From: Trypanosoma brucei
Taxonomy: Eukaryota
Assembly (NCBI GenBank): GCA_000002445.1
Contig: CP000071.1
Span: 1,824,001-1,888,000, forward strand
Length of the DNA: 64,000 bases
Direction: 5' to 3'
In this document: piece after piece, positions 39,235-59,489 of the stretch
Layout of the letters: the number at the start of each line of letters is the position of its first letter
How positions within the stretch are numbered: the first letter of the stretch is position 1
Position numbers and translations under genes: made by a program
The notes under the pieces: generated by a model
Seen by the model: the letters and a program-made list of their open reading frames with translations, nothing else
Databases searched by the model: none
Told to the model about the DNA's origin: nothing

Positions 39235-39235
<1 letters not shown>

Positions 39236-41016: not shown

Positions 41017-41253
41017 ATGGCTGAAAAGGTGACGAAAAAACGCTCATCATTCCGACCGGAACGAGCGCGTGGTGGACGTGGCGGCGGAGGGACCGGGCGG
41101 GGAGCTCAAATGCCTGATCCCTATCAAGCAATGATGGCACTTATGGGAATGGTGGCAGGCGGGGTAATGGCACGTGGTGGACGTGGCGGTGGTCGTGGCA
41201 GTCGGGGTGGAAATTCGCAGCGTGTGATGGGTGGATTTCAACCCTTTCAATAA
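41017..41253 (+). CDS. Small RGG-box protein, 78 aa (tentative)
   Basis: The ORF starts with ATG directly after a strong polyY tract (tcttctttccactcctccattctttttttttctttaatacttcg). It has three RGG/RGGRGG clusters flanking a Met/Ala-rich middle. Being short and low-complexity, the call is tentative. Confidence 0.35.
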   Translation: MAEKVTKKRSSFRPERARGGRGGGGTGRGAQMPDPYQAMMALMGMVAGGVMARGGRGGGRGSRGGNSQRVMGGFQPFQ

Positions 41254-42577
41254 ATTTATTTCTCCCCATCACCACCACCACCACAATCACAACCACAACC
41301 ACAACCACCAGGCCTACTTGTCAATACTTCGGTATCGCATGATGTGAAGAAAAAAGAGGAATGGAAAAAAAAAATGGAAAAGAGGAATAGAAGGAGAAAA
41401 GGAAGTGGATGGGTAGTTGAATGGAATGGAATGGAGGGACAATGACAAAAAAGCGCTGTTTTGACTGTTGTTGTCATTCGCGGCGTGTTATTGTTTTAAT
41501 TCCAATAGCCCTCTCATCCTCGACCCCTTTCTTTCTTTTCGCTGTCCTGCTTTTCTTTTTTTTAAATTAAAAAAAAAAAACTTCTGCCTCTTCCTCTCTC
41601 CTTTTCTTTCCAGCTGCAGATGCCGTTGGGAGGACGAAGGTGGTGCCGTAAGTCCAACACCGAAAGAAATACGGATCTAAAGTCAACGGTGTGTGGATGG
41701 TTGTGTGGATAATACAAAACTAACAAATAAAATGAAGGTGAAACAATGGGGGAGGGAGGTGGAGATTAAAAAAAGAAAAAAGTGAAGGAGGGTTGAAGAA
41801 TGAAGAAAGAAAGAAAGAAAGAGAGGGGGTAACTGGTGTGGGCGCGAGAGGAGAAAGCGTGCTGAGGATAGGAAAAGTTGAATGGAAAGACAAAACAAAA
41901 AAGATGAAAAGTGTGTGGTACAAGTGATGAAGGTGTGGCGAGAAATGTCCCGATGCGCCATCATCACATTTGTGTACCATCACTTCTCCTTCCACGCTTT
42001 TGTTTGTTTGTTTGTTTTTGTATTCGCTCTTATCCCTCTTTCCATTGCTTCAATGATGCTGTGGTGACGGAGAACCCTCTTGGGCGTCCGGTTGCGTGGC
42101 ATCGCTGCCCTTCTAACCGTTTCTTTCAGCGTGGTATCTCCTTCACATTCCCGAAGCCTCTTATTTTGCCTTTTTTAAAAAAGAAAAAAGAGAAAAAAGA
42201 TAGAAAGGTGTGGGGAGTGGGGAAGAATTGGAAAAGGGATAGCGAAAACTATGGAGAAGATAAGCGATACAGGGAAACAAACTCACGCGTGCAGTTGCAT
42301 GAGTGCCAGGTTGTTCAATCCCTTAACGAGAAGTGACAAAATAATATAACGAAAAGGGAAAAGGGAAATAAAGGAAACGAAAAGCATGTGACGGCAATAT
42401 TTCCTCCCACTTCCACTTGCTGCATTTGGTACGTGCACCGCTCCATCAAACAAAACAGCTATGTTGATAATGCCACGAATGTGCAGGTGGAACACGGTGG
42501 CTTGTGATAACTCTCCATGTCATTGATTTTTGTTGCTCTTCCATTCCTCAACCCCTCCCGCTTCTACACCGTGCTTG

Positions 42578-42650
42578 ACTTCTTTCTTTCTTCTTTTTTT
42601 TCTTTTCTTTTTCCCTCTCTCTCTCTTTCAATTTCACTTTCCCCCTTTGT
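42578..42650 (+). promoter_or_regulatory. Polypyrimidine tract plus downstream AG, a candidate SL trans-splice acceptor signal for ICP
   Basis: There is a 70-nt run of C and T (tctttctttcttcttttttttcttttctttttccctctctctctctttcaatttcactttccccctttg) ~85 nt upstream of the ICP ATG. This is the canonical kinetoplastid pre-mRNA processing signal. The exact acceptor AG was not mapped. Confidence 0.6.
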
Positions 42651-42733
42651 CGTGACACACACACACACACACACACTCCACTAGAAAAGCTTTTTTGTTT
42701 TCTTTTCTCCCCGCGAAAGTGACCTAATACAAT

Positions 42734-43099
42734 ATGTCCCACAACCTATTTACTGAGGAAGACAACAACAAGACCATCCGTATGGTCATTGGTGAAACCT
42801 TCACGATTGAACTTAAGAGCAACCCAACCACCGGCTACACGTGGCTTCGTTCAGGTCTCGCCGGTACCGAACTCAGCGATTGCACCTTCGCCATCCAAAG
42901 CAAATTTAACAACCGTGCGCCTCATGATAACCACAAGAATCACAGACGCCTATTGGTTGGTGCGGGTGGCACGATGGTACTCGAAGTGAAAGCCCTTAAA
43001 CCCGGGAAGCACACGCTTTCACTCGCTTACGGACGCCCATGGGTTGGATTCAATGCCGCAGCCAAACGTTACAACATTCACGTCGAGGCCACCGCATAA
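42734..43099 (+). CDS. ICP: Inhibitor of cysteine peptidase, chagasin family (ICP)
   Basis: The ORF starts with ATG after a long polyY/(CA)n tract. It has all three chagasin-family loops: NPTTGY (L2), GAGGT (L4) and RPW (L6). It is 121 aa with a beta-rich composition. It matches my memory of T. brucei ICP. Confidence 0.9.
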   Translation: MSHNLFTEEDNNKTIRMVIGETFTIELKSNPTTGYTWLRSGLAGTELSDCTFAIQSKFNNRAPHDNHKNHRRLLVGAGGTMVLEVKALKPGKHTLSLAYGRPWVGFNAAAKRYNIHVEATA

Positions 43100-44061
43100 A
43101 TAAGGCGGTATGTGGAAGTGGAGAAGGAAGGAAATAAATAAATATATATATATTTATTTATTTATATAGGATTCTGCTTTTTTGTTTGTTTGTTTGTTTT
43201 TGTACAGATGTATAATCGTTTAGTGTACGGGGGGGGGAGGAGAAGAAGAAAGAGGGAAGAGGAAGTAGTACATATGAAGGGTAAAATAATTCCCTGCCTG
43301 CCTTCACTTTTATGTTTTCTTTTAATCAGCGAGAGCAGAACAAATTGAAGCAAAGAAATGAAAGTGAAAAATTAACAGTTTACGTGATTGCTTCCTGAAA
43401 TAACATGAAAAGGAGGTTTTCCTTTTTTATCATTTTTCCTTTGACTTTTGTACGATGAAGAAGGAAAGGGCATATCCGTCAAAAGGAAAAATGAGGAAAA
43501 TCTAACTTCATCTGGAGGGGAAAGGGAAGGTGGAAAACTGAATACGCTACTTTGATGTCCTTTTTCCCCTTGTGTTCTTCCCTGTTTCTCCGTTTTTCTT
43601 TTTTTTTTTTTACCCCTTGTGTGGATGCTTCATATTATTATTTTTATTATTGCTATACCCTTGCTTCGCCTTAGGAAAAAGTTATACCAATGACATAGTG
43701 GAAACCAGAGGTGTTCAAAACAAAACGAGTAGGGAAAGGGGGTGATATGCTTTACTTTCTTCTGTTGTTATTTGCTGTTTCCGTGCTGCCGTTTGGGATG
43801 CCCGTTTTCCCTTCTTTTTCAAACTGCTTCAGTTTAATAACTTATGTTTACTCCATCCCGCCTTTTATTCTCGAATTTGAGCAGGCGTAACTTTCAGTTG
43901 CAAGGGTGACTGGAAGTGTCATTCAGTTGCACACAAGTCTTAACGCCCTAGCAATAGAAGAAATACCTACGTTTAACTCTAACCATAGCAAAGACAAAAG
44001 TAGAACAAGCGTCACGTTGGAAAAGCAAGTGAATTTGTTTGGAAACTTGGGGAGACGCGTA

Positions 44062-44601
44062 ATGGAACGAATTGGTGAGTTTACCGTCATGGCATTTCAT
44101 AATGTTCGCAATGCCGCTGCACTCCACGATCACTTCAAGAAGAAAAAGATTGACGCGGCGGTTATAGATGCAGCTTACATTGTGTCGCACCTTCACCTTT
44201 CCGTGGCTCTGCATCGCTTATCAACTGAGCCGCTTATCACAGAAAGCGGTGCCAAATCAGTCGCTTCTTCATCAACCGCTTGCGGCACATCTCTCGTACC
44301 AGAGCGGAAGGTTACCGCTCGCGATGTTTTTTCGTCGCTGTCGCACACTCGCAACCTCGACCGGGTGCTGGAGCGCCTTACTTGCGCAAGCACCACAACT
44401 GCAGTCGTCATTGTGTTGCATGCGCCATCGTCCCAACATGTGGAGGGCGTTGCGGCATTTGTTGAAGGTGAACCGCATCGCTTGTCAGATAACAACCGTT
44501 ACTGTAAAGAAGCGGCCGTCCGAGACTTTTATGGCGTCGGAGAAGCTGAGACGGGGCTTGAGGCGGCCGTCGTGAATCGGTTAGCCACAAGCGGTATTTG
44601 A
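44062..44601 (+). CDS. Hypothetical protein (start uncertain; track ORF begins at a GTG at 43906)
   Basis: There is a 696-nt open frame on the transcribed strand with a first in-frame ATG at 44062. Third positions are GC-rich, and several other frames are also open here. No domain is recognised. Confidence 0.3.
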   Translation: MERIGEFTVMAFHNVRNAAALHDHFKKKKIDAAVIDAAYIVSHLHLSVALHRLSTEPLITESGAKSVASSSTACGTSLVPERKVTARDVFSSLSHTRNLDRVLERLTCASTTTAVVIVLHAPSSQHVEGVAAFVEGEPHRLSDNNRYCKEAAVRDFYGVGEAETGLEAAVVNRLATSGI

Positions 44602-45081: not shown

Positions 45082-46719
45082 ATGCCTGGGTGTCTTGAGG
45101 TACGTTACATTGGTGAGAGTCATGGCGTGGGTTCCTATACACTGAAACCAGCCAAAGCGGGGGATGTCCTTCTGCAGGAGTACCCCGTCGCATTTGCCAA
45201 GGCCCAAAGACAAGACGCACTGGAACCTCATCGCATCTGTGGCGGTTGCGGTATGATCCTCACCAGTCTAAAGGAGGAGTGCCGGCGCTTAGCGCTGCTC
45301 GCACTTGAGGCAACCACCGGAGGGTCATCGCAACTTGATGAGCGAGTGCACGGCAGTAGTAATGCATGTGAAGAGCAAAAATATGAACATGAAGCAGTTG
45401 GTAATCGAGCGGGCGTCACGGAATGTGCTGTCGAAGCGCCGGAGCTGGCTGTTATAGTCTCACCTGACAAGTTATATGACACGTTCAAGGACCATGAAAT
45501 GTGGGAACACTTCCAGAAGGGGGTTGAAGCCAGTGACGATATACCAGAAGGCGGAGCCGATAGCGCGGAGGTTCGGTTTTGCAGTATGGAATGCAAGGAG
45601 CACTGCCTTGGGGGCCGGGGCGGGCGTTTCGTGCTTCCACTGTTGCGGGAACCGCCATGCAACGAACTGCAGCTCACCTCTGGCGTAATGGAGGCACAAG
45701 GCATTGAAGATGTTGACAAGCTACGCACACCATCCGCTGATACGATCATGTACCAGTCAACAACCTTGACGGCTGAAGTCGCGGTGGAAGTGTGGCCAAC
45801 CAAGGCCCATGCACTCGCTACGTTGGAGTTTCTTGCAGAGAAGTATAATGCACGATTGCGGCTTGTTCTGTTCATCCTTGCTCGCTTTCTCTCGGACATT
45901 CTTTCCACGGGCTCGGTGGCAGCTAACAAACAGTTTGAAGAGCGTCTTGGTGAAAGAGTGCAAGAATTTGTACAGCATTACGACGAGGGTGCGTCGCGAG
46001 GCCTATCACCCGAGCAGCGCTCGTTTCTTCGCTTCTCGTGGAAGTGCGTTTGCCGCTGGATAACTCTTTGCTGCGTGAATGAAGGAAAGGTAGCCACTGC
46101 AGTTGCAGGTAGCGAAGATAAATTTTGTGAAGGACTATGCAGTGCAGAGAGAGTGTGCTCTAGCACAGCTGAATGGTTCCCCCTCCAACTTTACCTACGT
46201 TGCTTTTGGGTAACAGATGCTAATGCACACATGTACGTTGTAGTTTCCCCGCTCTATAGCTTGTTATCCGAGAGGTTGCCAATACTGAGTGGCATATACC
46301 GTATCCAGAGCGAAACACATTTTGGCAAAGGCAGAGGTGAAAACGTTTGTGAGAACGAAGATTCCAACGTTGGTAGCGGGCGAGAGGTGGATCGTTTAAA
46401 CCGTCAAATGAAAATACTCCAATTTCTGTTCCAAACTGTGGACCCGAACAGAGCTCACTCCAGAGGTGTGGCTCTCTATGATGCGGCGGCGAAGATAAAC
46501 CATAGTTGCGCACCATCAGTCCGATTTGTGCCGACCCATGGCGGGGTCAAGGCCGTCGTTGTGGCGTTGCGAGATATTCCCAGCGGCGAGGAGGTGAGAA
46601 CGTCGTACATTGAAGTTGGGGCGTATCCCACAAACAAGGCACGAAGGGAGTTCCTGCTTAGCAGCTACGGGTTTAACTGCGATTGCCCACTATGCGTAAC
46701 TGAATGTGAACCAACATAA
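45082..46719 (+). CDS. SET domain protein (SMYD-like, split SET with Cys-rich insert)
   Basis: The ORF starts with ATG. The SET C-terminal signature is AKINHSCAPSV...EEVRTSYIE and the post-SET Cys cluster is GFNCDCPLCVTEC. The N-terminal Cys-rich regions are CGGCG...C and RFCSMECKEHC. Confidence 0.7.
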   Translation: MPGCLEVRYIGESHGVGSYTLKPAKAGDVLLQEYPVAFAKAQRQDALEPHRICGGCGMILTSLKEECRRLALLALEATTGGSSQLDERVHGSSNACEEQKYEHEAVGNRAGVTECAVEAPELAVIVSPDKLYDTFKDHEMWEHFQKGVEASDDIPEGGADSAEVRFCSMECKEHCLGGRGGRFVLPLLREPPCNELQLTSGVMEAQGIEDVDKLRTPSADTIMYQSTTLTAEVAVEVWPTKAHALATLEFLAEKYNARLRLVLFILARFLSDILSTGSVAANKQFEERLGERVQEFVQHYDEGASRGLSPEQRSFLRFSWKCVCRWITLCCVNEGKVATAVAGSEDKFCEGLCSAERVCSSTAEWFPLQLYLRCFWVTDANAHMYVVVSPLYSLLSERLPILSGIYRIQSETHFGKGRGENVCENEDSNVGSGREVDRLNRQMKILQFLFQTVDPNRAHSRGVALYDAAAKINHSCAPSVRFVPTHGGVKAVVVALRDIPSGEEVRTSYIEVGAYPTNKARREFLLSSYGFNCDCPLCVTECEPT

Positions 46720-47120
46720 GGTTTATTTATTAAACGTGCGTTTTGGTTGTTTGGATGGCGTGCTTCCTGTTCGCTCTCCGGTTCTCACGCGGACATACGT
46801 GGTGGGTTTATCGCGCGGCGAGAGGCGTTATTAGTTACATTAACTTACTTGATATTAACCGTAATAGTTACGCATGGTCGGGTAGGGCTCGTTGTGCTGC
46901 TTGTGCTAACGCTGCTCTCGATCGTCATTACAAATTTCCAAGGAAAAAAAAACGCATACATACACATATCTTATCATTTAAATGTACTACGTTTACCGTT
47001 GTTGGTAGTATGAGGAGCTCTGCGCGCGCGTCCAATCCTATCGTGTGAGCAACTGCAACAAAGAAACATAAAAAGGTCACGCAAGTTGTGAAGTTAGTTT
47101 CTATTCGGAGCGTTCCGCGT

Positions 47121-48140
47121 ATGGGGTTCAAGTGTCTCCTCTCATCACGCGCCCTTCTTCAGGTTACCGGGTCTGTTGCTCATGAATTCCTGCAGGGCCT
47201 CTTCACAAATGACTTGCGGCAACTCCAGCCCGGTGGCAGCCTGTGGGGATGTTTTCTTCACCACACGGGTCGCGTTATGTGCGATGCCTATCTTTACCAA
47301 TCGACTCGCACGCCCGAAGGACAGGTAACTATTATGATTGATGTGCATTGTGGCGTTGCGGACACCCTGTTGGAGCACCTGAAAGAGTACCGGATGCGCA
47401 AGAAGTTAGAAATACGGAGTGCAGCCGAAGAGTTGGTGGTGGTGGCTGCTGCAACGATTGGAAATTCGATCTCGTCCTGCGGAGACAATGCTGGAAGTTC
47501 CCCATCATCATCGTCGGCAACATACGGTGGGGACCAGGAACTTAGTGGCCCACAAGGTGTGGATTCATTCGATACCTTGGCGGAGACATTTACTGACCCA
47601 CGCAGCTTCGCTCTCCCAGCCACTCTTCGGAAGATGATTGTTCCTCGGAAAGGTGCCCCACCCACTCTGGACTCAGAGAAATTGTACAAGAAATTTCTGT
47701 ACGCAGCCGGCGTCGGTGAAGGACCCGAAGTGTTCAGGCCTTCGAAAACACTACCCTTTGAAGCAAACACTGACTTGTTACGAGGCGTCAGTTTTCACAA
47801 AGGCTGTTATATGGGACAAGAGCTCACTCACCGTACTCATGTAATGCTTGTCACACGCAAGCGCACAGTACCACTGTTCCTTCAGGGGGAGCTGTTTGAC
47901 GGGAAGGGAGGCGAAAAAACACCGCATGTTGAGGGGACGTTGGTGATCGGCAACCAGAAGGTTGGTGAGGTTCTCACTGCATGTGGTAACGTTGGGCTCG
48001 GGTTACTGCGTTTGAACCACGTGGACATCACGACGCGAAGCTTTCCGGGGTTGTCACTGAGCGATGGCACAACTGTCGATGCGAGAATCCCTGAGTGGTG
48101 GGACGAAAAGGAGCTACGCAAAGTCCTCACCAAATCATGA
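47121..48140 (+). CDS. IBA57: IBA57/CAF17 (YgfZ-family, aminomethyltransferase-like folate-binding) Fe-S cluster assembly factor
   Basis: The track start at 47088 is a GTG. The ATG is at 47121 (MGFKCLLSSRALL...). The N-terminal GcvT-like block is LQVTGSVAHEFLQGLFTNDLRQL and the YgfZ signature is FHKGCYMGQELTHRT. Confidence 0.8.
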   Translation: MGFKCLLSSRALLQVTGSVAHEFLQGLFTNDLRQLQPGGSLWGCFLHHTGRVMCDAYLYQSTRTPEGQVTIMIDVHCGVADTLLEHLKEYRMRKKLEIRSAAEELVVVAAATIGNSISSCGDNAGSSPSSSSATYGGDQELSGPQGVDSFDTLAETFTDPRSFALPATLRKMIVPRKGAPPTLDSEKLYKKFLYAAGVGEGPEVFRPSKTLPFEANTDLLRGVSFHKGCYMGQELTHRTHVMLVTRKRTVPLFLQGELFDGKGGEKTPHVEGTLVIGNQKVGEVLTACGNVGLGLLRLNHVDITTRSFPGLSLSDGTTVDARIPEWWDEKELRKVLTKS

Positions 48141-49113
48141 TGGTAGCTGAAAGACAGAACGGGGTTGGAGGAGGAATGGGTGGTGTTTTTTGATCCGTTC
48201 TACCAAATTTTACTCTCCTATACACAAATATACGAACATTTGAAATGGCGCGGAGAACGGGCGCTTTCGTGCCCGAGTAGCCGTGAGAAAATTTGGTCCT
48301 GTGGTGTTTTTCCCCAGCACCACCACGCCCATTGCCTTGTTTGTTCTTACTAAATCTATCGTCAGAGTGTATTTTTTCTCAGTGTTGTTATTATTGAATG
48401 AAGTGTATGGAGATGAAGAAAGTTGACATTGTCCTTGCTGCCGACTCTTTTTTAAACATTCCGTATTCTTTTTGTTGGCGTGGTCGTGTTGTTGCAACCA
48501 CCATGCAAATACGGGCGAGGGAGTATGCATTGGAGAATACCCCCAGAATAGCGACGTGGCGGATACACATCCTAAGGCAAATACATATATATATATACTT
48601 TTTTATAACTATATTTACGTGGGTGCTTGTGTTGACGTTTGTAGCGTGAAGTTCAGTGGGAGTAAATGCGAAGGTGATGGGTAGAGCCATACTCTAAGTA
48701 CCGTGTTACTCTCACATTATTCTTTCTCTTCCTTCTGTTTTGCTAACTTGTTAAACGCATTTTAAACACGCATTTTGCTTACCGAAGGTAAGAAGAACCA
48801 AGCAAAGGTGACGGTGGGTGGCCACACAGAAGTTAAGGATTTCGCTCCGGCGCGCGCACCTCGCTGAACAAGGACGCCACACATAACGGGCTAGCCAAAA
48901 AGGGGGAAAAGTGAGGCTGACGGAGGCACGCTTCCCTTCCATCGTTCTGGTTGGTTCTCTTGGTATCGCTCACTCTACCTGCATTCTCCTTCACCCCCTT
49001 ACCAGGCCATTCTACTAGAAAACAGAAGGGACTTGGCTTACTTACTTTTCCTTTATCTAAGAGCGCCGTGAAGGAGCCAAGGGAGTAAAACGACAGTGTG
49101 GTTAAAAAAAGTG

Positions 49114-52100
49114 ATGGGTTGTGGTGCCTCCAGCAGGGTTGTGGAATCCGATGACAGGGAACGGCATAAATCACCACATTCCGCAGCCGAATGTTCGCCT
49201 AAGCTGGGCGCCGCTGAGGTTTCCCCTAACGCCAAACTCAAGGAGGTTCCGTCTGTTTCAACAAGCGTCATCGAAGGCCTGAAAGGACACCAGGGGACCT
49301 TCGTCATGTCGAAGTTCTCCAATGATAGCATGACTACAAGCGCATCGTATCTCAATCAACCAAACACCAACGAGGCTTTACCTCCCATCCAAACCGCAGA
49401 AGCTTCCTTTGCTCCGTCGGACGCCGCTGACTCCACAAGGGGAAATGGGAGATCGCCCTTCGCGTCGAATTTTACCGACAGCAATGTGGCTACCAGTTTT
49501 CTTAGAATCCCGCATTTAAACAGTGAGGTTGATTCGGACGCGAGGTTTAGCAGCAACGCATTTGAAAGCAGATGTCGTTCCGGCTCTGTGGTGAGCACTG
49601 GCGTGTGCAACGTACCCATACTTCCAACATTTTCCCACTGCAATAGCAGGGATTCACGTTTTCAAAGCCCATGTGGAGTAAATAGGTGTGACTCTTACAG
49701 TCCAACGGCTCGTCCTCATGAATGTTCACGCCGCTGTGGTTGGGGGGAGTACGAAACGCTGAGACGACTCAGTATTAATAACAGCATGGACGGCACTAAC
49801 GGCACCATAGCAGACACAGCAACTACAGCCAGCAGCGTAGAACACTCCAATAATTATGCGGGGCATCGTTATAGTTTCATAGGGACGGACTGTGGGTGTA
49901 GCAGCCTCTTTTATGACCCATGTGAGAGGTGCAGCCGTTGTATACTCGACACGGAGGCGGTGTACCGATGCGATTTATGTATGCTGATCTTCTGCACTGA
50001 CTGCCATGCGGAAATTGGGGCGGCACTGCACAGACACAAGCTAACAAGCTTCAGGCGCGCCGTAAATAGCAATGTGACTGACTCATTCCTCATCAACAAG
50101 GGGAGAAATAGGGACGGGAACAAAGTAATCAATGAATATGTGGTGATAAAGGTGCTTGGAAGGGGGTCACACGCGAAAGTTAATCTCGTGCAGCACCACC
50201 AGGATCGTACGTTTTATGCAGTGAAAATATTGCGATGTGACCGTACCAAAAAAATACATCATGGGATCGTTTCGAAGTCCAGCACCGCCAGTGATGATGA
50301 CCTTCTGCGCGAAATCGCGGTTATGAAGTTTGTATCACATCCCAATCTCATAAAACTGAAAGAGGTGATAGATGACGTTGAATCGCATAAGGTGTACGTA
50401 ATCATGGAATACTGTGCCAAGGGACCAGTTCATGTTCACGGTGAGCCGCCGCTACCCCCAGAGAAGGTGAGAAAATACGGATGTGACATACTATCCGGCC
50501 TGTTGCAACTCCACGCACAGTATCTTTATCACTGGGATATTAAACCGGCCAATTGCCTTGTTGACGACAATGACGTCGCGAAGATAGCTGACTTTGGTGC
50601 TTGCGGTAGCTCGACGCGAACCTGCAAGGTTGGCGGCACTCCCGCATACAGCTGCCCCGAACAGTTTGCTGGAACGCATATTGGAGGCCATGTTGCAGAT
50701 AGTTGGGCTTTTGCCATGACGTTATATCAAATGTCACATGGCACCCTCGCGTATAGCACTACCTCCATTTCCAGCTTGAGGGACAGTATGCTAGATCCAA
50801 CACCGCTACCCATTCAAGAAGGAGTAGAGCCCGAGTTGAAGGACTTATTGCGCCGAATGTTAAATAAGGATATGTCGCAGCGAATGATGCTACACGATGC
50901 TATGAAGCACTCGTACTTCAGTGGATATGTGACGCAAAGTTATACAACAGTCGAGCCTTCCAATGAGTCAGCGGGGTGCATCACGGAAGACTTGTACGCC
51001 CGTGCACAGCAAGCAGTGCTTCGAGGGAAACGGGTCGGTGATTTCTTTCATGGCGTGCAGTTTGTGCGCAGAATACGCCGAATGATGGTTCGTCATATCA
51101 ACACGCACGACGTGGACGATGAAGATGATTTTTTCCCTGAACTCCCAGAGGCATCCTCATTGGAGAGTACCCAACGTTTAGTGACCAACGAAGCTGACAT
51201 ACACGAAGTGCATAAGATAGTCAGTAGTTTCGTCGGGGATGCTGTGAGAGGAGCGCTTCGAATTGACGGAATCCTCATGACTACACTTCATTCCTTCGTA
51301 GCGGAGGCGGCACCGTTGGTTTCGAAGCTGTGTTGCAGCAATAACAAGCTCACGTGTGTGGGAACAGTTGATTTCTCGAAGTTTCAACACCTTCGCGTGC
51401 TGCAGATTTGTGAAAACTCGCTCAGGCAATTTCCACTGGATGTTCTCCACGCCCCTAGGTTACAGTTCCTGGATTTATCTCACAATCATATCAAAGACAT
51501 ACCGCCCGCGCTCACCTGCGCCCGGGAACTTCAAACATTGTGCATGAACCACAACCAAGTGGCATACGTGGGTTGTAACGAGTGCGGTGCATCCGTCCTC
51601 TCAGGAGAATCTATGCAAAAGGTGGTGCTGACTGCCAACCCATTGCGCCATCTACCAGCTGAGATCACATCATGTTCCAAGTTGGAGTTAATTTTAGACG
51701 ATGCCCCATCGCTGTTGGAAGAGTGGTATGCATCAATTAATCAGTCGACAAGTGTGAGTATTACGTGGAACGACATTTATCCTTGTCGAGTATACCCCGA
51801 GGTGCCACTCTTCGTTGCTTCTAAAAGCATTAAACTATATAACTTGACTATACTAGAGGCACTCGGCACGCGTAATGTTGTGTTGACACAATTCGAGTCG
51901 TGGCTCCCCACAGGTGAAGTGAATTCTGCTGCAATGGAAGAGCACGTTCGACGCCGGCAGAAGGAGTCAGTGAGGGTTAATGGAAATGATAGCGAATGTG
52001 AAATTCGCTCGCCAGTCGTTAGAAAGACGGCAATGAATGTCGGGGATTGTCTTCCCATACCGAATATTCTCTCTAAATCAGTTTGTCGGTTCCTCCATAG

Positions 52101-52353
52101 TTACTTTATATTGGAAGAGAAAACCTCCTATACAGTATCTGCCTACGGAGCTCTCAAGAATTATCTCACAACATGTCTCGGTAGAAATGAAAGTGTTGTT
52201 GTATTTCTCGATGAGCGGAGGGATTCACAAAATACCCGTGATACAATTGTTGCAGTTTTGTGTGAAGTACTGATGGCTGCGAAAGGGGGTAAGAGAACAC
52301 TGAGTGGTTGCATCAGCGATGTAGTTGATGCGACGCGGGGGCTCTACGCGTGA
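49114..52353 (+). CDS. Ser/Thr protein kinase with N-terminal acylation motif, Cys-rich B-box-like region and C-terminal leucine-rich repeats
   Basis: The track start at 49096 is a GTG. The first ATG at 49114 gives MGCGASS. Kinase subdomains: LGRGSHAKV (Gly loop), YAVKIL (VAIK), HWDIKPANCLV (catalytic loop), ADFGAC (DFG), YSCPE (APE). The upstream Cys/His cluster is CERCSRC...CDLCMLIFCTDCHAEIGAALHRH. The C-terminal LRRs are LDLSHNHIKDIPPAL and LCMNHNQVAYV. Confidence 0.8.
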   Translation: MGCGASSRVVESDDRERHKSPHSAAECSPKLGAAEVSPNAKLKEVPSVSTSVIEGLKGHQGTFVMSKFSNDSMTTSASYLNQPNTNEALPPIQTAEASFAPSDAADSTRGNGRSPFASNFTDSNVATSFLRIPHLNSEVDSDARFSSNAFESRCRSGSVVSTGVCNVPILPTFSHCNSRDSRFQSPCGVNRCDSYSPTARPHECSRRCGWGEYETLRRLSINNSMDGTNGTIADTATTASSVEHSNNYAGHRYSFIGTDCGCSSLFYDPCERCSRCILDTEAVYRCDLCMLIFCTDCHAEIGAALHRHKLTSFRRAVNSNVTDSFLINKGRNRDGNKVINEYVVIKVLGRGSHAKVNLVQHHQDRTFYAVKILRCDRTKKIHHGIVSKSSTASDDDLLREIAVMKFVSHPNLIKLKEVIDDVESHKVYVIMEYCAKGPVHVHGEPPLPPEKVRKYGCDILSGLLQLHAQYLYHWDIKPANCLVDDNDVAKIADFGACGSSTRTCKVGGTPAYSCPEQFAGTHIGGHVADSWAFAMTLYQMSHGTLAYSTTSISSLRDSMLDPTPLPIQEGVEPELKDLLRRMLNKDMSQRMMLHDAMKHSYFSGYVTQSYTTVEPSNESAGCITEDLYARAQQAVLRGKRVGDFFHGVQFVRRIRRMMVRHINTHDVDDEDDFFPELPEASSLESTQRLVTNEADIHEVHKIVSSFVGDAVRGALRIDGILMTTLHSFVAEAAPLVSKLCCSNNKLTCVGTVDFSKFQHLRVLQICENSLRQFPLDVLHAPRLQFLDLSHNHIKDIPPALTCARELQTLCMNHNQVAYVGCNECGASVLSGESMQKVVLTANPLRHLPAEITSCSKLELILDDAPSLLEEWYASINQSTSVSITWNDIYPCRVYPEVPLFVASKSIKLYNLTILEALGTRNVVLTQFESWLPTGEVNSAAMEEHVRRRQKESVRVNGNDSECEIRSPVVRKTAMNVGDCLPIPNILSKSVCRFLHSYFILEEKTSYTVSAYGALKNYLTTCLGRNESVVVFLDERRDSQNTRDTIVAVLCEVLMAAKGGKRTLSGCISDVVDATRGLYA

Positions 52354-53927
52354 TGGTCCGTATTCGTTTCGATAATATGCGGTGCCAAAGAGGGTAATGT
52401 AAAGAGAGAGAGGAGGGGAAACAAAAAAGCAACAAAGAGAAAAAATAATAATGATAATAACAATAAAAATGCGCGGTTTATTCAAGTGCAGTTTGCAAAA
52501 CGGTTGCGGTCGTATTGCTTTTCAGTTACCGTGGATGTGGAAGGGTTCCGCATCCGCATTCCCACTTTGTATGTGTATTTCTCAATGTGTATTTATGTGT
52601 TCATGTGTACGTTTATGTCTGTAGTCGCAGTTGATATGCAAGTTGGGAGCCATTTGGTTCTTGTGACTGCCGTTGGTCACCTTTATTTGTTTGTTTTTGC
52701 GTAATGTGCCTGTTGTTTTTTGTTTTGTTTTTGTTTTTGTTTTGTATCTTTTCCCTTCCACCTCCACCTGTCGCACGCCTCTCTTTTATTTATTTACCTA
52801 TTTTTGTTTGTATCGAGTGATTTGTGACGAAACGCTGTCCTTTATCGTGAGGGGTTCTTGTTTTGTTTTTTTTTTGCATTTACTATGGAGAAGTGAATCA
52901 AAAGGAAAATAAGAGCAAAGGTAAAGAAAAGTGTATCGAGGAACAAATACTGCATGTACACCTGTTGTATTTGTGTTTATTTTACTTATTATTTTTTTTT
53001 GGCATTTTATCATTTTAGTGCGGAGGGCACGGTGCGGTGTGGTGTGATGTGTCCCACGAGCCTGGGTAACATATATATATTTATATATATTATTGTCATT
53101 AAAAATACAACTATATGTTACACATGTATTCCAGAAAGAAATTGAAATGAAAGGAAAAAGAGGGGAAGAATAAGTGCATGTATTGCACAATACCACATCC
53201 ATTTATTTGTTTGGTTTATTTGCCTTGAGCGTCACGGAGAATAAATGTTTAAAGTGTTAGTGTGTGTGTGGGGGGGGGGGTATTGTTATTATTGTGTGAA
53301 GAGGACATATTTGTGTAATGACGTCTAGTGAGATGATGTAAGTCCTTTTATGTATTTAATTTAATTTAATTTATCTTCCCTTGAACCACGATGTGTTTCT
53401 CTCTGCTCTTCACTTCACGTTTACAATTGGCGAGTGCTTTCCTTTTTCTTTGCTCGTATGCGCTACTGTGTGCGTGTGCGTAATATGTATGTCCCCCGTT
53501 TTTTTCTTTCGTTAGTTTTATTTATTTGTTTTTCCCTTTGAGCGTTTACGAAAACAAAAGAAAATAAGTAAGTAATCGTGTCGGCGCGCACTTGGTTTCG
53601 ATCGGACGATGTTAAAAGAAAGTGAAAGGATTTTTTATTTGTTGCTCACGTCTGTGTTCGTGTGAATTCTAGACAATTTTTTTTTTATTTTTTTGCTTGA
53701 ATGAAAGAGAGAATAGTAGAGCGCGACAGGAACGAATCGAGATAAAGGGTTGTTGTTGTTGTTTTTTTCCAAGTGTGAGTTAATAAAATACAAACACGAC
53801 TCGTTACTTTATTATAATTTCCCTTCCCTCTTCATCCCTTCCTCCTCAGTGTTGATACACGTGTGTTTTATCATATTTTTTTTATTAATATTATATTTAT
53901 TTACTTCGATTACTTTAATTTTTTAAA

Positions 53928-53943
53928 GTCACGCATGCGTGAC
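53928..53943. other. Perfect 16-bp palindrome GTCACGCATGCGTGAC in an AT-rich intergenic spacer
   Basis: I reverse-complemented it by hand and it is identical to itself. It is GC-rich (62%) within a <30% GC context. Confidence 0.9.
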
Positions 53944-56337
53944 GCGGTGCACTACGACTTATTTGCATAATATATATATTATGTGTTATATCTTGATATG
54001 AATATTTATGTGCGCGTACGTTGAATTATTATTATTATACGAGTGTGACGAACATATAACGGAGTGAAGTGAAACAAGCCCGCATGTGTCAACCCAAATT
54101 GCAGCACTTTAACACGACTAATATAATGATAATAATAAATATTATTATCATTATTGTTATTAACGCCGGGGCTAACTGTTGCTGCAGCCCCGGATCCTAT
54201 CTTATCGTCGTATATGTTTATCTTTTTACTTTTCTTTTTTTTAAAAAAAAAGATAATAAAGCAGTATTTATATATAAGTTCTTCCCTCCAGATTATTTTT
54301 TGTTACCTTCTTTTTAATTATTATTATTATTATATATATTATCTCCTCTTTTCCCTTTCATTCAATCTCATTATCAACATCATTGCTGTTAACAACATTT
54401 CTTTTATGTGTTTATGTTTACTTCTTACGTATTCGTTTCGTGCTCACTTGAGTTTATGGGTGAATTAACCAGACTGGTGTTTTGTATTTGTTTATGTAAG
54501 TGTGTATAATTTAAAGAAGAAAATGGTTGAAATATGAATAAAGATATAAATATTTGAATGAATAAATAAATAAATATATGCGTGTGTATGTGTATGTGTA
54601 TGTGTCATCCATTACTTTTTGGTCTCCGCGTGGTGGTTGAGGAATGAGAGAAAAATTAAAAAATTAATAGAGAGAAAAGTGTACAGGTATCTGAGAGAAT
54701 GCATTGATTTGATCCTATGAGGTGCATTTTGTTATATAAACTCAATTGCGTATGTATGGGAACGGGAGGGAGTGAAAAGCCTGATTTCTTTCAATAAATA
54801 AATATATAATATGATATGAAAGTTATTTGTTTCTTTTTTTTTCTATTATTATTATTTTGCAATACTTACATCGTTTCGTTATATGTGTTTGATCCCTTCA
54901 CTATCCCTCTCATTCAAACTCCCACAACTTTTCTTCGGGCCATCAACCCTCCACTTAAATATGTCACTTCTTCGTTTTATTTTTGTTTTGCTCATAACCT
55001 GCTGCTGTTTTGGGGTTTTTATTCATTTTATCTGCTCAATTTATTCATATTCGCTTCTCTTCTATTCTATTTTTGTTTCTTTCTTTTCTTTTTTTTTTGT
55101 CGTTTGACATTTCTTTTTCGTTCTTATTGCTGTTAGGTACCCGCAATTGTTTTAGTTTGTATTTCACTCACCTCGCCAGAGCGGCATCTTCTTATTTTGT
55201 TTTATTAGTTCGCTCCCCCTCATTGTCTCTCCTTGGCTTTTCAGCTACTCCAAGAGACAAACAAGAAACAAAAAAAAAAGAACAGAACAGAACAGAAAAA
55301 AATATATTATTAAAAACAAAAACAAAAGCAAAAAAAGAAAGTAAAAGGGTCACTTTATCTTTTTGTAAACTTCTTCACTTTGATTTCCACTTGTAATTAA
55401 TTGACCTTTCTGTTTCATAGTTCCTGCTCCCTTGTACCTGTTTATTATTATCATTATTACTAGTAGTGTTTGTATTGTTGCGGCTTATTTGCCTTCACGC
55501 TAGTAACTTCGAACCGTTGACGCACGGATCTCATTGATTGATTGGGGAGATATATATATATATATATATATTCTTCCCTATCAAAAATTAAAAAAGAAGG
55601 AAGAGAAAAGAGTATATATTGTTATATAAAGGATTTTAACAACTAAAAGTAAACAAAAGGAGGAAGGGAACCCCGGCGTTTGTTATCAACATACGACGAC
55701 ACGTGAATTCAAGCAAACACCACATATATATTCCCTCCGTTTTTTTGTAAGTTTTTTTTTTTGCCTTTTGGTTTTGGTTTTTTTCTTAAAACAAATCAGA
55801 AGAAAAGGCAAGGAGGCTAATTGAAAAGAAAATACCAAATCGGAATAAATAGGTAAAGGGAGGGTCAAAAAAAAAAAAAAGAACAGGAGAACAAAAAAAA
55901 GGGAAATACCCTTAGTTTTTGGTGAAGTGAGAGAGCCCTGTAGTTTCATTTTTTTTTTTCAAATATATATCACGAAGCGGTACAGCGAAAGGGAAAGGAG
56001 AAGAAGAAGAAAGACTTTATCGAGTTTTTTTTTTCGTTTGCTTTATATCACTTTTGTCGTTGTTTTGTCCTGAGGTGCTTGGACGCGTAGTGCGAAAGAA
56101 ATTAATTTCAGAAGGGAAACCGAATCGACAGGTAGCAGATAAGCCCATTTGCTGTTGTTTTACATCTTTTTAATTCACTCCGTTACTTGTAGAAGCAGAG
56201 GGTCGTGGTTGACTTGTTTGTGGTTTTTTTTGTTTGTCTGTTTTCTTGTTATTGTGTGTGAGTGCATTTGTGCGTTGTAAACTGTTGGCGGGTGAACGAA
56301 AAAATAAATCAATAAATAAAGGAACGGATAGGGGTAG

Positions 56338-57957
56338 ATGAACTTCGAGTTGAGCATCAACACCCCTACGCGTCCCACGCGTTGGGTTTCCAACGAAACG
56401 CCATCACCTCCGGTGAACATTTCCTTCTCGACTCCGGACCGTTTCATTTCCGATCGGAATTCACAGGATAATTCCATATCACATTTCTTCCTCACAACAA
56501 AAGAGAATGTTGTGCCACTGCGTACCGCGTCAGGTCAGAGGGCCCATTCCTCAGTGATGGTGACGCCGCCAAATCGTGGCACGACGGGTGGTGGTGGTGG
56601 TGGGGCCTCTGCTCCACCCGTCTTTGGTGGTGGCGGCGGCAGTAGTGGTGGTGGAAGCCCCAGCAAATCTGCCAAACGCGCCGCTCAATGTAGTTACACA
56701 TGTGCACCAGAGCTCGGTACGGAACCATACACAAATAAACTTGCCCGTACACTTTTCCCGGGCACCCAGTCTACTGTTTTGGGGATTAACAGTCAGGTGC
56801 AACCGCGGCCCGCACCAGAAACAGAGCAGGAGCGGTACAGCAACTCGCTGGGTGTGGTATTCGAGGAAAATCGGGCAAGGAATTTTATGTCAAGAACGTT
56901 CCGGGTTATATCGCGAGCTCCAGAGCGTATTCTCGACGCGGTGGATATGATAGACGACTTTTACCTTCAGCTCATGGATTGGTCCGCAAAGGACGTCCTC
57001 GCTGTGGGGTTGCAAGGGTCTGTCTACCTGTGGTATGAGAAAACATCTAACATTGCGCAGCTCCCGTGCCAACGACCAGCCAACGGGATCATTTGCGGTG
57101 TTAGTTGGAGTGAGGATGGAAATCACTTGGCCCTGGGCGCTGACGACGGCTCAGTGGAGATTTGGGATGTAGAGGCGGAGCGCATTACACGCCGATTGCA
57201 TCACCACACGGATCGTGTGGGGGCTCTCTCATGGAATGGAAGCGTCCTTTCAAGCGGCAGCAAGGACACAACCATTCGTATTAATGATCTACGGGACCCT
57301 CTAGGCACATGGACGCTGCAGGCTCACCGGCAAAGTGTGTGTGGTTTGCGCTGGTCACCTGATGGATTGCGCCTGGCAAGTGGTGGAAACGACAATCAAC
57401 TTCTGCTCTGGGACATGCGCACTTTATCCATGAACTCAACACCCTCCATGTTACTCAATAAGCACACAGCAGCGGTAAAAGCAATTGCGTGGAATCCAGT
57501 GCAACACAATCTTCTGGTTAGTGGCGGCGGTTCTGATGACAAGATGTTGCGCTTCTGGAACACGTCGACCGGTGAGTGCATAAGCAACTTTAACGCAGAA
57601 AGCCAGGTGTGTGGCGTACTGTGGAACCATGGCGGTACAGAACTTGTAAGTTCCCATGGCTATTCCCACAATCGCCTTACAATTTGGAAGTACCCAACGA
57701 TGCGGCGCGTTGCGGACTTGGCAGGGCATACGTCACGTGTTCTGCACATGTGCATGTCAACTGATGGGGAGGTGGTGGTATCCGCAGCAGCTGATGAGAC
57801 AATTAGGTTTTGGCGTTGCTTCTCCCCATGCGAACAAACAAATTACTGCCGAACCCGACACGAGAGCCATCGTGACCCGAATTGCGTACCACCCGGACTG
57901 GGGGTAAATGCGCTTCAGTTGGACACAAGCCTGCGTGATGAGCTCCCCTTGCGCTGA
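56338..57957 (+). CDS. CDC20: CDC20/Fizzy-family APC/C co-activator (WD40)
   Basis: The ORF starts with ATG. The C-box-like motif is DRFISDR. The diagnostic block is RILDAVDMIDDFYLQLMDWSAKDVLAVGLQGSVYLW, followed by a 7-bladed WD40 propeller. The N-terminus has a poly-Gly stretch. The C-terminus ends ...LPLR. Confidence 0.85.
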   Translation: MNFELSINTPTRPTRWVSNETPSPPVNISFSTPDRFISDRNSQDNSISHFFLTTKENVVPLRTASGQRAHSSVMVTPPNRGTTGGGGGGASAPPVFGGGGGSSGGGSPSKSAKRAAQCSYTCAPELGTEPYTNKLARTLFPGTQSTVLGINSQVQPRPAPETEQERYSNSLGVVFEENRARNFMSRTFRVISRAPERILDAVDMIDDFYLQLMDWSAKDVLAVGLQGSVYLWYEKTSNIAQLPCQRPANGIICGVSWSEDGNHLALGADDGSVEIWDVEAERITRRLHHHTDRVGALSWNGSVLSSGSKDTTIRINDLRDPLGTWTLQAHRQSVCGLRWSPDGLRLASGGNDNQLLLWDMRTLSMNSTPSMLLNKHTAAVKAIAWNPVQHNLLVSGGGSDDKMLRFWNTSTGECISNFNAESQVCGVLWNHGGTELVSSHGYSHNRLTIWKYPTMRRVADLAGHTSRVLHMCMSTDGEVVVSAAADETIRFWRCFSPCEQTNYCRTRHESHRDPNCVPPGLGVNALQLDTSLRDELPLR

Positions 57958-59489
57958 GGAAGCCCGAACGCGTCACGGCTCTGGATCGTCATCTGACGCT
58001 ATACGTATATGTTTTTAAATACATGACAAGGATATCAGGGCGTAAAATATTCATTAAAAGGAAGAGAAACGGTGACATCAGGAAATGGAGGTGAATTGCT
58101 TTAAAGTTTTGTACAGTAATGTTGGAGTGTTAGGCCACTTGGAAGGGGAGCGCGCGGAAAAGTGGTGAAAGCAACGAAAGAAGGAAGAGGAGGGGGTTTG
58201 TATCGTTGAATGGCGAGTGGGAAATTGGAAGGGCTGAGAGGAATGATTGCACGGCGAGGAGAAGGAGAACGGAGCGGAATCTGAACTTTCAGTGCCCCAC
58301 CCTTCCCTTCCCTTCCTGAACCGCATCCCCCAATTCCCACTCGCAAGGGAGCATGCAAAAGCGTACAATTGTATATATGTACATATAAATGACTGTATGG
58401 GCTGTATAGGTGATTGTAAAGATCAATGTCTATATATATATATATTTATATTTATATTGTCTATGACATTTGCGCGTATGTGGCTGAGTGTGTGGAATGC
58501 GGTCAATGTGCCAATGATTGTCGCCCGTTTTTAAAAACTCCCATTAACTCATCCCATGCATTCCACATTTTCTTACCACGCTCCCAAACGTTAGCTTTCT
58601 CTCTCATCATGTTTTCTGCTCATGTTGAACTTGTACCTGTACGTTTCTTTTTAAAATAAAAAAAATGTGGTACCTTACAGCTCAAATTGTATTGAAGAAA
58701 ATGGAGAAGGGAATTCGAAAGGAGGCAGAGCAATGAAACAAGAAGCAGACGGATGAGATGCAAAGGAAGGAGTGGAAGAGAAGCGGGAAGAGACGAGAAA
58801 CGACCATATACACACACACACACATATATATATGTGTGTCGGTGTGTGTTTGTATATGTATATGTATTTTTCCAAATGAGTGAAATAATCGTGGATAACG
58901 CGATGCGTTACGAGTGTTGTTGGGTGAAGAAGTATAGTATGTGACTCTGCGCGTGCGGACTTTTGAGGAACTACCTAATTTTTTCTTTTTTTTCAGGTAC
59001 TAAGACATGGAGATGTATCATCACCTTGTGGTCGTTATTGTCTTAGGTGCTTCTATTTTTGTTTAATTTCTTTGTGGATACCTCGTTCTCGTTCTTTGCT
59101 ACGTTAAAAAGTATTTCGGACCTTCATTCGCCCCTCCTTCCAAAAACGCGTATTCCTTTCGAACGCGAAAAGGAAGGAGGGGCCGCGGGTGGTAGTTCCC
59201 TCTTTCTATTTCCATCCCACCCTTCTGACTTTTTAAAAAAAAAAAGTTGGTATGCTTCAGAGCCATCAGAGTGGCACCATGAAAAATGGGCGTATCATTA
59301 CACACTCACTTCACGCGCTGGTGGGATCTCTCCCCTTTATCTTGTTTGTTCATTTATTAACCCTTTGCCGCATTGCATCACAAAGCGGCGTGTTGTTGGC
59401 AACGAGGGAAAGGTGAGAAGAGGGAAGTTGAGTGTAGGGGCATACATACGGGAGGAAAGAAAAGGGACGAAGGTAAAGGGGGGAAGCAA

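What the first reader, a model, noticed from the sequence alone, without database searches (positions are those of the whole stretch)
49114..52353. Kinase with MGCGASS dual-acylation motif, HWD (non-RD) catalytic loop, B-box-like Zn cluster and C-terminal LRRs
Several unusual features coincide in one gene. (1) The first ATG gives MGCGASS. Gly2, Cys3 and Ser6 match the N-myristoylation plus palmitoylation consensus used by trypanosome flagellar and pellicular membrane proteins. (2) The catalytic loop is HWDIKPAN instead of HRDLKPEN. That makes it a non-RD kinase, so it is not regulated by activation-loop phosphate bridging. (3) A CxxC...CxxC...CxxC...CxxH...HxH cluster sits upstream of the kinase domain. 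(4) The ~450-aa C-terminus carries leucine-rich repeats. Together this suggests a membrane-tethered signalling kinase with a protein-interaction scaffold.
Basis: partly seen in the sequence, partly recalled or inferred. Interest (0 to 1): 0.6.

Follow-up and report, generated by a model that had tools for sequence, protein, structure and literature searches.

The report
Acylated trypanosome kinase with dead phosphatase

Summary
The window is T. brucei brucei TREU927 chromosome 8. The ORF 49114-52353 is identical to XP_847479.1, and by gene order it is Tb927.8.6490, listed as Other/CAMKK.

All four observations hold:
- MGCGASS is the first ATG. No other ATG lies within 414 nt upstream.
- The catalytic loop is HWDIKPAN.
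- A Cys/His cluster sits at residues 270-308.
- Pfam finds LRRs.

The interpretation needs correcting on three points:
- HWD occurs only in T. brucei-group species and T. congolense. T. vivax, T. cruzi, Leishmania and Bodo all have HRD, so it is a recent local substitution and not a sequencing error.
- The zinc cluster is the second of two tandem ZZ-like fingers. The first has lost its ligands in T. brucei.

The MGC..S acylation signal is conserved across kinetoplastids but has not been shown experimentally. The gene and its kinase+LRR combination were already known. The dead phosphatase domain and its "kinatase-like" layout appear in none of the papers I could search.

The parts
49114..52353 (+). 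Complete CDS of Tb927.8.6490 (1079 aa plus stop), a CaMKK-like multidomain kinase
   Evidence: ORF. Exact match to XP_847479.1, T. brucei TREU927. The gene ID is inferred from its position between FPC4 and CDC20 and from the kinome table.
48931..49113 (+). Likely trans-splice acceptor region and 5' UTR: pyrimidine-rich tract, first AG at 49004, no upstream ATG
   Evidence: Sequence and motif scan. The splice site itself is inferred, not mapped.
49114..49134 (+). MGCGASS: predicted N-myristoylation (Gly2, Ser6) and S-palmitoylation (Cys3) signal
   Evidence: Conserved in orthologues. Predictor result for the L. donovani orthologue.
49135..49905 (+). Ser-rich N-terminal region predicted to be disordered (aa 8-264). 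It contains the remnant of the first ZZ finger.
   Evidence: pLDDT below 30 over residues 1-266. 17% Ser.
49660..49845 (+). Degenerate remnant of ZZ-like finger 1 (aa 183-244). Four Zn ligands that are invariant in other orthologues are lost (C189V, C201P, H228T, H232I).
   Evidence: Alignments. The intact module in orthologues matches the dystrobrevin ZZ domain at E 2.3e-7.
49906..50058 (+). ZZ-like cross-brace zinc finger 2 (aa 265-315; ligands C270, C273, C286, C289, C294, C297, H306, H308).
   Evidence: All eight ligands are invariant in 12 orthologues. Sub-threshold hits to UBR box, C1_2, ZZ, B-box and FYVE. Related to finger 1 (hhalign 89%). pLDDT 74-84.
50137..50919 (+). Protein kinase domain (aa 342-602), CaMKK-like. 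K371, E400, D475, N480 and D493 are present.
50530..50538 (+). HWD catalytic-loop triplet. W474 (TGG) replaces the RD arginine.
   Evidence: Shared with T. congolense only.
50590..50661 (+). Activation segment DFG...CPE (aa 493-516). G507 replaces the E/D found before the GT motif in nearly all of the HRD orthologues from trypanosomatids and Bodo.
51043..51099 (+). Conserved basic amphipathic helix FFHGVQFVRRIRRMMVRHI (aa 644-662). It lies just after the kinase domain, where CaMKK carries its autoinhibitory/calmodulin-binding segment.
   Evidence: Conservation and predicted helix 648-664 at low confidence. Its function was not tested.
51241..51708 (+). Leucine-rich repeat domain (aa ~710-865): five canonical repeats plus capping strands
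   Evidence: Pfam LRR_8 and LRR_4, repeat cores, seven strands with pLDDT 86-95.
51751..52350 (+). C-terminal DSP-fold pseudophosphatase domain (aa 880-1079)
52195..52230 (+). Degenerate P-loop VVVFLDERRDSQ, aligned to VIVHCFAGVSRS. The nucleophile Cys is Leu1032 and the Arg is Ser1038.
   Evidence: HMMER places the strand before the loop in the same register.
52990..54301 (+). Four UAUUUUUU motifs (52990, 53686, 53874, 54294) in the AT-rich ~4-kb downstream region. This is the motif I recall being reported as the RBP10 binding element.
   Evidence: Motif count: 4 of the 14 in the whole window. Papers state that Tb927.8.6490 mRNA is bound and repressed by RBP10 and is procyclic-specific. The motif identity comes from my own knowledge. 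The 3'-UTR extent is not mapped.

Best explanation
The locus is Tb927.8.6490, one member of a multidomain signalling protein family conserved across kinetoplastids.

Domain order:
- an N-terminal MGC..S dual-acylation signal;
- about 260 disordered Ser-rich residues;
- two tandem ZZ-like zinc fingers, the first decayed in T. brucei;
- a CaMKK-like kinase domain that keeps every catalytic residue;
- a conserved basic helix;
- five to seven LRRs;
- a C-terminal dual-specificity-phosphatase fold that has lost its catalytic Cys and Arg.

Proposed working (inferred, not shown): myristate plus palmitate hold the protein on a membrane, either pellicular or flagellar. The kinase is the only active enzyme in the protein. 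The ZZ finger, the LRRs and the dead phosphatase act as docking modules that select partners or phosphorylated substrates, as STYX-type pseudophosphatases do.

The HWD motif is a derived change in the common ancestor of T. brucei and T. congolense. It followed the loss, already seen in T. vivax, of an acidic activation-loop residue that accompanies HRD in nearly all of the trypanosomatid and Bodo orthologues listed. In these two species the kinase has therefore probably given up an Arg-acidic contact that organises the activation loop elsewhere in the family.

Reported expression is procyclic-specific and repressed by RBP10 in bloodstream forms. The gene is dispensable for growth in culture.
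For: Identity and annotation. The LRR-on-CAMKK combination was already tabulated in 2005.

Domains:
- Pfam.
- CaMKK is the best sequence hit and the best fold hit.
- Zinc-finger profiles.
- Full-length and C-terminal models.

Homology of the C-terminal domain to active DSPc domains:
- The comparison set is Apiculatamorpha, Papus, Namystynia and Hemistasia proteins with the same kinase-LRR-DSP order. The two prokinetoplastid proteins also have MGCC N-termini and two ZZ-like motifs.
- hhalign gives 99.65%, against under 1% for reversed or shuffled controls.
- The junction motif (LDD/NxP..W...WN/QKIYPxxV) is shared with the trypanosomatid LRR-DSP.
- No Cys or Arg at the P-loop positions in any of the 21 orthologues whose sequence covers the loop.

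Acylation signal: conservation, first AUG, published predictor call on LdBPK_241800.1.

HWD history.

Expression and dispensability.
Against: - No experimental evidence for acylation. The L. donovani orthologue was not detected in the YnMyr proteomics.
- TrypTag terms are cytoplasm and flagellum, not a membrane term. I could not see which terminus was tagged.
- Kinase activity is untested. A Trp at the RD position is absent from the other 141 best-scoring representatives in the library search, and its effect is unknown.
- The docking role of the dead phosphatase is an analogy only.
Confidence: 0.6

Rival explanations
1. One reading: a membrane-tethered, constitutively regulated non-RD signalling kinase whose accessory parts are a B-box zinc finger and a ~450-aa LRR scaffold.
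For: The acylation motif, HWD, the Cys/His cluster and the LRRs are all present. B-box is among the sub-threshold Pfam hits.
Against: Non-RD status is confined to two species. ZZ matches are stronger for the intact module, and the HxH ending fits ZZ. The LRRs cover only about 155 aa, and the last 200 aa are a DSP fold.
Confidence: 0.2
2. In the T. brucei/T. congolense lineage the protein is decaying. R474W, loss of the acidic activation-loop residue and loss of ZZ finger 1 mark a kinase that is weak or dead. The protein then acts mainly as a scaffold, or is on its way to becoming dispensable.
For: T. brucei differs at 16 of 134 columns that are invariant in the other orthologues. These include four Zn ligands and R474. 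There was no growth phenotype in bloodstream-form RNAi or RIT-seq. The Leishmania null is viable.
Against: K371, E400, D475, N480 and D493 are all intact. The full 1079-aa ORF is maintained in T. b. brucei and T. equiperdum, with 1078 aa in T. b. gambiense. The T. congolense protein, known here only from a 675-aa fragment, is 62% identical over its length. Many active kinases are non-RD (established knowledge). Transcript regulation by RBP10 suggests a stage-specific role, and no fitness data for procyclic or tsetse stages were seen.
Confidence: 0.15
3. The C-terminal domain is not phosphatase-derived. It is an unrelated alpha/beta domain that only resembles a DSP in a predicted model.
Confidence: 0.05

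Closest known systems
Mammalian CaMKK1/CaMKK2 (Other/CAMKK family)
   Different: W replaces the RD arginine. There is no demonstrated calmodulin-binding segment, only a conserved basic helix at the equivalent position. The acylation signal, ZZ fingers, LRRs and DSP-fold domain are all absent from CaMKKs. No AMPK or CaMK substrate link has been shown.
Kinetoplastid 'kinatases' (Tb927.4.2460 and orthologues; Brenchley et al. 2007, PMC2175518)
   Same: The domain order is kinase - LRR - DSP fold. The kinase domains are closest to CaMKKs.
   Different: It is a different gene. As described in that paper, kinatases have two pseudokinase domains lacking the catalytic Asp, plus an active DSP. Here there is one kinase domain with all catalytic residues and a DSP fold without Cys or Arg. 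Direct sequence comparison was not possible, because no kinatase sequence was retrieved.
Prokinetoplastid and diplonemid kinase-LRR-DSP proteins (Apiculatamorpha P0117, Papus P0131, Namystynia P0114/P0120, Hemistasia P0122)
   Same: These are the nearest non-trypanosomatid homologues. The prokinetoplastid ones share the MGCC..S N-terminus and two ZZ-like motifs. All have an HRD kinase, LRRs and a C-terminal DSP domain in the same order.
   Different: Their DSP domains pass Pfam DSPc (1e-26 to 1e-30) and keep HCFAG(V/L)SRS. They also keep HRD. They are known only from transcriptomes and are uncharacterised.
STYX-type pseudophosphatases
   Different: STYX changes only the Cys (to Gly) and keeps the phosphate-binding Arg. 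Here both are gone, so even phosphate binding is uncertain. STYX is a stand-alone domain.
Dually acylated trypanosomatid proteins (calflagins, CAP5.5, SMP-1, PPEF, HASPB)
   Same: They have an MG(C) N-terminus with Ser/Thr at position 6. Dual acylation of several of these is described in PMC4372256.
   Different: Those are small or non-kinase proteins with experimentally shown acylation. No acylation data were found for this kinase.

Membership tests
Eukaryotic protein kinase, CAMKK family | Pkinase domain above the curated threshold, with nearest relatives being CaMKKs | tested here: met
Eukaryotic protein kinase, CAMKK family | Catalytic residues: VAIK Lys, alphaC Glu, catalytic Asp, Asn, DFG Asp | tested here: met
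   K371, E400, D475, N480 and D493 are present. The Gly loop is GRGSHA, with Ala at the third Gly position. Orthologues have the same change.
Eukaryotic protein kinase, CAMKK family | Calmodulin-binding/autoinhibitory segment C-terminal to the kinase domain | tested here: inconclusive
   There is no sequence similarity beyond residue ~604. A conserved basic helix at 644-662 lies at the equivalent position, but binding was not tested.
RD kinases | Arg immediately before the catalytic Asp (HRD) | tested here: not met
   HWD in T. brucei subspecies and T. congolense. HRD in all other orthologues retrieved.
N-myristoylated plus palmitoylated proteins | Gly2, small/uncharged residue 3, Ser/Thr6, and a nearby Cys on the initiating Met | tested here: met
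   MGCGASS is at the first ATG. The pattern is kept in T. vivax, T. cruzi, T. theileri, Leishmania, Porcisia, Leptomonas and prokinetoplastids.
N-myristoylated plus palmitoylated proteins | Demonstrated lipid attachment or acylation-dependent membrane localisation | not testable with these tools
   The L. donovani orthologue was predicted '+/high/reliable' but not detected by YnMyr mass spectrometry. The L. mexicana orthologue was tagged at its N terminus, which masks Gly2. TrypTag lists cytoplasm and flagellum.
ZZ-type zinc finger | CxxC-x(n)-CxxC-x(n)-CxxC-x(n)-HxH ligand pattern | tested here: met
   C270/C273, C286/C289, C294/C297 and H306/H308 are invariant in 12 orthologues.
ZZ-type zinc finger | Significant profile match to ZZ domains | tested here: inconclusive
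   Finger 1 of orthologues matches the dystrobrevin ZZ domain at 2.3e-7. The window's finger 2 matches the UBR box best (1.8e-5), with ZZ, C1_2, B-box and FYVE all below Pfam cut-offs. Fingers 1 and 2 are related.
B-box zinc finger | Pfam zf-B_box match above threshold | tested here: inconclusive
   There are only sub-threshold hits: best 5e-4 for finger 2 and 1.5e-5 for finger 1 of orthologues. zf-B_box is not among the families listed for the window's own finger 2, whose best hit is the related ANCHR-like_BBOX at 15.2 bits against a cut-off of 27.
Leucine-rich repeat proteins | Tandem LxxLxLxxNxL repeats recognised by LRR models | tested here: met
   LRR_8 scores 44.1 bits and LRR_4 42.1 bits against a cut-off of 27. 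Five cores.
Dual-specificity phosphatase (PTP superfamily) | PTP/DSP fold | tested here: met
Dual-specificity phosphatase (PTP superfamily) | Active-site HCx5R(S/T) motif | tested here: not met
   The loop is F-L-DERRD-S-Q in place of H-C-x5-R-S. No orthologue has Cys or Arg at these columns.
Dual-specificity phosphatase (PTP superfamily) | Sequence-model match (Pfam DSPc) | tested here: not met
   No DSPc hit even at E of 10 or below. Homology is seen only by profile-profile comparison with same-architecture homologues.
Kinatase (Brenchley 2007) | Two pseudokinase domains lacking the catalytic Asp, plus LRRs, plus an active DSP | tested here: not met
   There is a single kinase domain with D475 intact and an inactive DSP fold. 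The T. brucei kinatase is Tb927.4.2460, a different gene.

The most novel reading that the evidence does not exclude
An ancestral acylated ZZ-kinase-LRR-phosphatase with both enzymes active survives today in prokinetoplastids and, without the acylation signal and ZZ-like motifs in the gene models retrieved, in diplonemids. In trypanosomatids it was partitioned into complementary half-dead paralogues. Tb927.8.6490 kept the kinase and killed the phosphatase. The 'kinatase' Tb927.4.2460 kept the phosphatase and killed its kinase domains. The dead domains may now serve to pair or regulate the two proteins on a shared substrate set. Separately, R474W together with loss of the acidic residue before the GT motif would be a paired rewiring of activation-loop control in the T. 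brucei/T. congolense lineage.
Probability: 0.2. Interest if true: 0.7.

Novelty: new variant of a known kind. Interest (0 to 1): 0.42.

Why it matters
Trypanosomatids have few recognisable receptor or scaffold kinases. A lipid-anchored kinase carrying three interaction modules is therefore a plausible entry point into procyclic or tsetse-stage signalling.

Recognising the C-terminal domain as a dead phosphatase has three consequences:
- It links this kinase to the poorly understood kinatase and LRR-DSP families.
- It gives testable constructs: G2A/C3A, K371 mutants, W474R, and deletion of residues 880-1079.
- It warns that the published N-terminally tagged localisation of the Leishmania orthologue cannot report acylation-dependent targeting.

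The HWD result matters mainly as a caution. It is a two-species peculiarity, not a family mechanism.

Tried and rejected
- The first whole-protein homologue search timed out and was repeated.
- HMMER of the C-terminal domain against PDB and Pfam gave only noise.
- Protein comparison failed on the two alignments. hhalign crashed in its default realign mode, and -glob gave a meaningless one-column alignment. I used -norealign with reversed and shuffled controls instead.
- A plain HMM of active DSP domains against the trypanosomatid sequences gave only weak hits, 9-14 bits for the best stretch of each. These were useful for register but not for significance.
- Searches seeded with the prokinetoplastid protein and with the active-DSP profile did not retrieve any trypanosomatid kinatase. 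Paralogy with Tb927.4.2460 therefore remains untested.
- The afdb50 fold library was unavailable.
- The T. brucei myristoylome and palmitoylome papers are not held.
- The lipid-raft proteome supplement does not list the gene.
- A text search for 'MGCGAS' gave nothing relevant.
- I considered and rejected the idea that this gene is itself the published kinatase.
- I rejected sequencing error as the source of W474.
Full report
**Observation**

The + strand carries an ORF from 49096 to 52353. Its first ATG is at 49114 and gives MGCGASS, for a 1079-aa product. An exact-sequence look-up shows this is XP_847479.1/AAZ13413.1/Q57TW4, 'protein kinase, putative', of Trypanosoma brucei brucei TREU927.

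Nine other ORFs of the window are exact TREU927 chromosome 8 proteins. They include FPC4, a CYC2-like cyclin, two SET-domain proteins and CDC20. The only CAMKK-class kinase on chromosome 8 in the published kinome table is Tb927.8.6490. That ID also fits the gene's place immediately upstream of CDC20. The gene ID is therefore an inference from position and class, not a direct look-up.

**Domains seen by standard tools**

K371, E400, D475, N480 and D493 are all present. By sequence the kinase looks catalytically competent. The 2005 TriTryp kinome paper already lists one LRR-bearing CAMKK per species, so the kinase+LRR combination is not new.

**Acylation motif**

No ATG in any frame lies between 48700 and 49114. 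A pyrimidine-rich stretch ends in AG at 49004. Any plausible trans-splice site therefore makes MGCGASS the first AUG. The site itself is not mapped here.

The pattern Gly2-Cys3-x-x-Ser/Thr6 recurs widely:
- T. vivax: MGCTPSV.
- T. cruzi: MGCGASS.
- T. melophagium and T. theileri: MGCGSS.
- T. conorhini: MGCGASA.
- Leishmania: MGCSTST, MGCGASM, MGCHVST, MGCSGST.
- Porcisia: MGCGASA; Leptomonas: MGCNVSM.
- The prokinetoplastids Apiculatamorpha (MGCCNSS) and Papus (MGCCASR).

Orthologues without it look like truncated gene models.

In the L. donovani myristoylome study, the orthologue LdBPK_241800.1 is scored '+ / high / reliable' by the predictors but was not detected by mass spectrometry.

The L. 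mexicana orthologue LmxM.24.1730 is reported as cytoplasmic and dispensable. It was tagged at the N terminus. The tagging primer encodes MGCSTSTHAS, which confirms orthology and shows that the tag masks Gly2.

TrypTag source data list Tb927.8.6490 under 'cytoplasm' and 'flagellum'. Acylation is thus strongly predicted and evolutionarily supported, but unproven.

**HWD**

W474 (TGG) is present in T. b. brucei, T. b. gambiense, T. equiperdum and T. congolense. HRD is found in T. vivax, six other Trypanosoma species, Strigomonas, Angomonas, Phytomonas, Leptomonas, Porcisia, Leishmania, Bodo saltans, prokinetoplastids and diplonemids.

Among the catalytic-loop motifs found in the other 141 best-scoring representatives of the 50%-identity library, none is HWD. 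The motif counts are HRD 121, HGD 19, and a few others. One repetitive protein contributes 15 of the HRD counts.

W474 is one of only four changes in the kinase domain at columns that are invariant in the other orthologues. It is therefore a real, fixed, lineage-specific substitution. It arose after T. vivax split off.

A second change travels with it. The residue just before the conserved GT of the activation segment varies as follows:
- E or D in nearly all of the HRD orthologues from trypanosomatids and Bodo;
- Y in T. vivax, which has HRD;
- G in T. brucei and T. congolense, which have HWD;
- K in an unrelated kinetoplastid-like protein that has HQD.

This suggests, but does not prove, that the Arg normally contacts that acidic residue, and that the contact was lost first. 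The statement that non-RD kinases escape activation-loop phosphate control is established general knowledge. It applies here only to the T. brucei and T. congolense proteins.

**Zinc cluster**

Orthologues carry two Cys/His modules.

Module 1 is CxxC-x8-CxxC-x5-CxxC-x(n)-HxxxH. It matches the dystrobrevin ZZ domain at 2.3e-7. It also gives sub-threshold Pfam hits to B-box and ZZ. In T. brucei, four of its ligands are replaced (C189V, C201P, H228T, H232I).

All eight ligands are invariant. Its best hits are the UBR box (1.8e-5), C1_2, ZZ, B-box and FYVE, all below Pfam cut-offs. The two modules are related to each other: hhalign gives 89%, score 30, against 8-12 for shuffles.

'ZZ-like cross-brace finger' is the best label. 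'B-box-like' is not excluded.

**C-terminal domain**

The full-length model is disordered over residues 1-266 and 608-694. It is confident over 695-955 and 980-1079. After seven LRR strands comes an alpha/beta domain.

The exhaustive representative search supplied the link:
- Apiculatamorpha and Papus proteins have an MGCC start, two ZZ-like motifs, an HRD kinase, LRRs and a C-terminal domain that passes Pfam DSPc at about 1e-26 with HCFAGVSRS.
- Diplonemid proteins have kinase-LRR-DSPc.

A profile of the trypanosomatid domain aligns to a profile of these active domains at 99.65% probability, score 159. Reversed or column-shuffled controls score 12-18.

The junction ITWNDIYPCRV...LFVAS mirrors ITWNKIFPDKV...LYLGS. 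It is also found in the trypanosomatid LRR-DSP.

In the C-terminal half, VVVFLDERRDSQ aligns to VIVHCFAGVSRS. Leu1032 therefore replaces the nucleophile Cys and Ser1038 replaces the Arg. None of the 21 orthologues whose sequence covers the loop has Cys or Arg there.

The domain is thus a conserved pseudophosphatase. It is not in the published phosphatome list, where the T. brucei kinatase is Tb927.4.2460 and the LRR-DSP is Tb11.02.5220.

**Biology reported by others**

- Tb927.8.6490 mRNA is described as procyclic-specific and as bound and repressed by RBP10.
- Four of the window's fourteen UAUUUUUU motifs lie in the AT-rich 4 kb downstream of the stop codon.
- RIT-seq and kinome RNAi found no growth defect in bloodstream forms.

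**Verdict**

The most likely picture is a lipid-anchored, catalytically competent CaMKK-like kinase. Its ZZ finger, LRRs and dead phosphatase serve as docking modules. The architecture part of this is well supported. The mechanism is inferred.

The gene is known and annotated. What I did not find in any paper I could search is the pseudophosphatase domain, its relation to bifunctional ancestors and to kinatases, and the dating of HWD.

Noticed in passing
window 52354-56337: The intergenic region downstream of the kinase is unusually long (~4 kb) and AT-rich (31-37% GC). It holds 4 of the window's 14 UAUUUUUU motifs within 1.3 kb. This fits the reported RBP10 control of this mRNA.
   Followed up: partly
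window 51043-51099 (aa 644-662): A conserved basic amphipathic helix, FFHGVQFVRRIRRMMVRHI, lies where CaMKKs carry their autoinhibitory/calmodulin-binding segment. It is a possible regulatory element and was not tested.
   Followed up: no
window 50590-50661 and orthologues: The residue before the activation-loop GT motif co-varies with the RD arginine. It is E/D with HRD in nearly all of the trypanosomatid and Bodo orthologues, G with HWD, and K with HQD (P0112). T. vivax is intermediate, with Y and HRD.
   Followed up: partly
window 47088-48140: The upstream neighbour is a CAF17/IBA57-like protein, a family linked to mitochondrial Fe-S cluster assembly (Pfam Beta-barrel_CAF17_C 1.5e-12, GCV_T 1.3e-6). 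The listed ORF opens at a GTG, and the real start is probably the ATG giving MGFKCLL.
   Followed up: partly
window 26987-28321; 17843-20206; 56338-57957; 45082-46719 and 62096-63214; 43906-44601; 59373-60086: All large ORFs lie on the + strand, so this is one polycistronic unit. Exact matches or Pfam hits identify FPC4, a CYC2-like cyclin, CDC20, two SET-domain proteins, a CGI-121 (KEOPS) homologue and a ubiquitin-conjugating enzyme.
   Followed up: partly
L. mexicana orthologue LmxM.24.1730 (Baker et al. 2021 supplementary data): The published 'cytoplasm' localisation comes from an N-terminal mNeonGreen fusion placed directly on the MGCSTST start. It cannot report myristoylation-dependent targeting. 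The same caveat may apply to other MG-kinases in that data set.
   Followed up: partly
window 14001-18000, 20001-22000, 28001-30000, 38001-44000: Several other long low-GC (29-42%) intergenic stretches separate the genes. A (TA)n run lies at about 48580-48600, upstream of the kinase.
   Followed up: no
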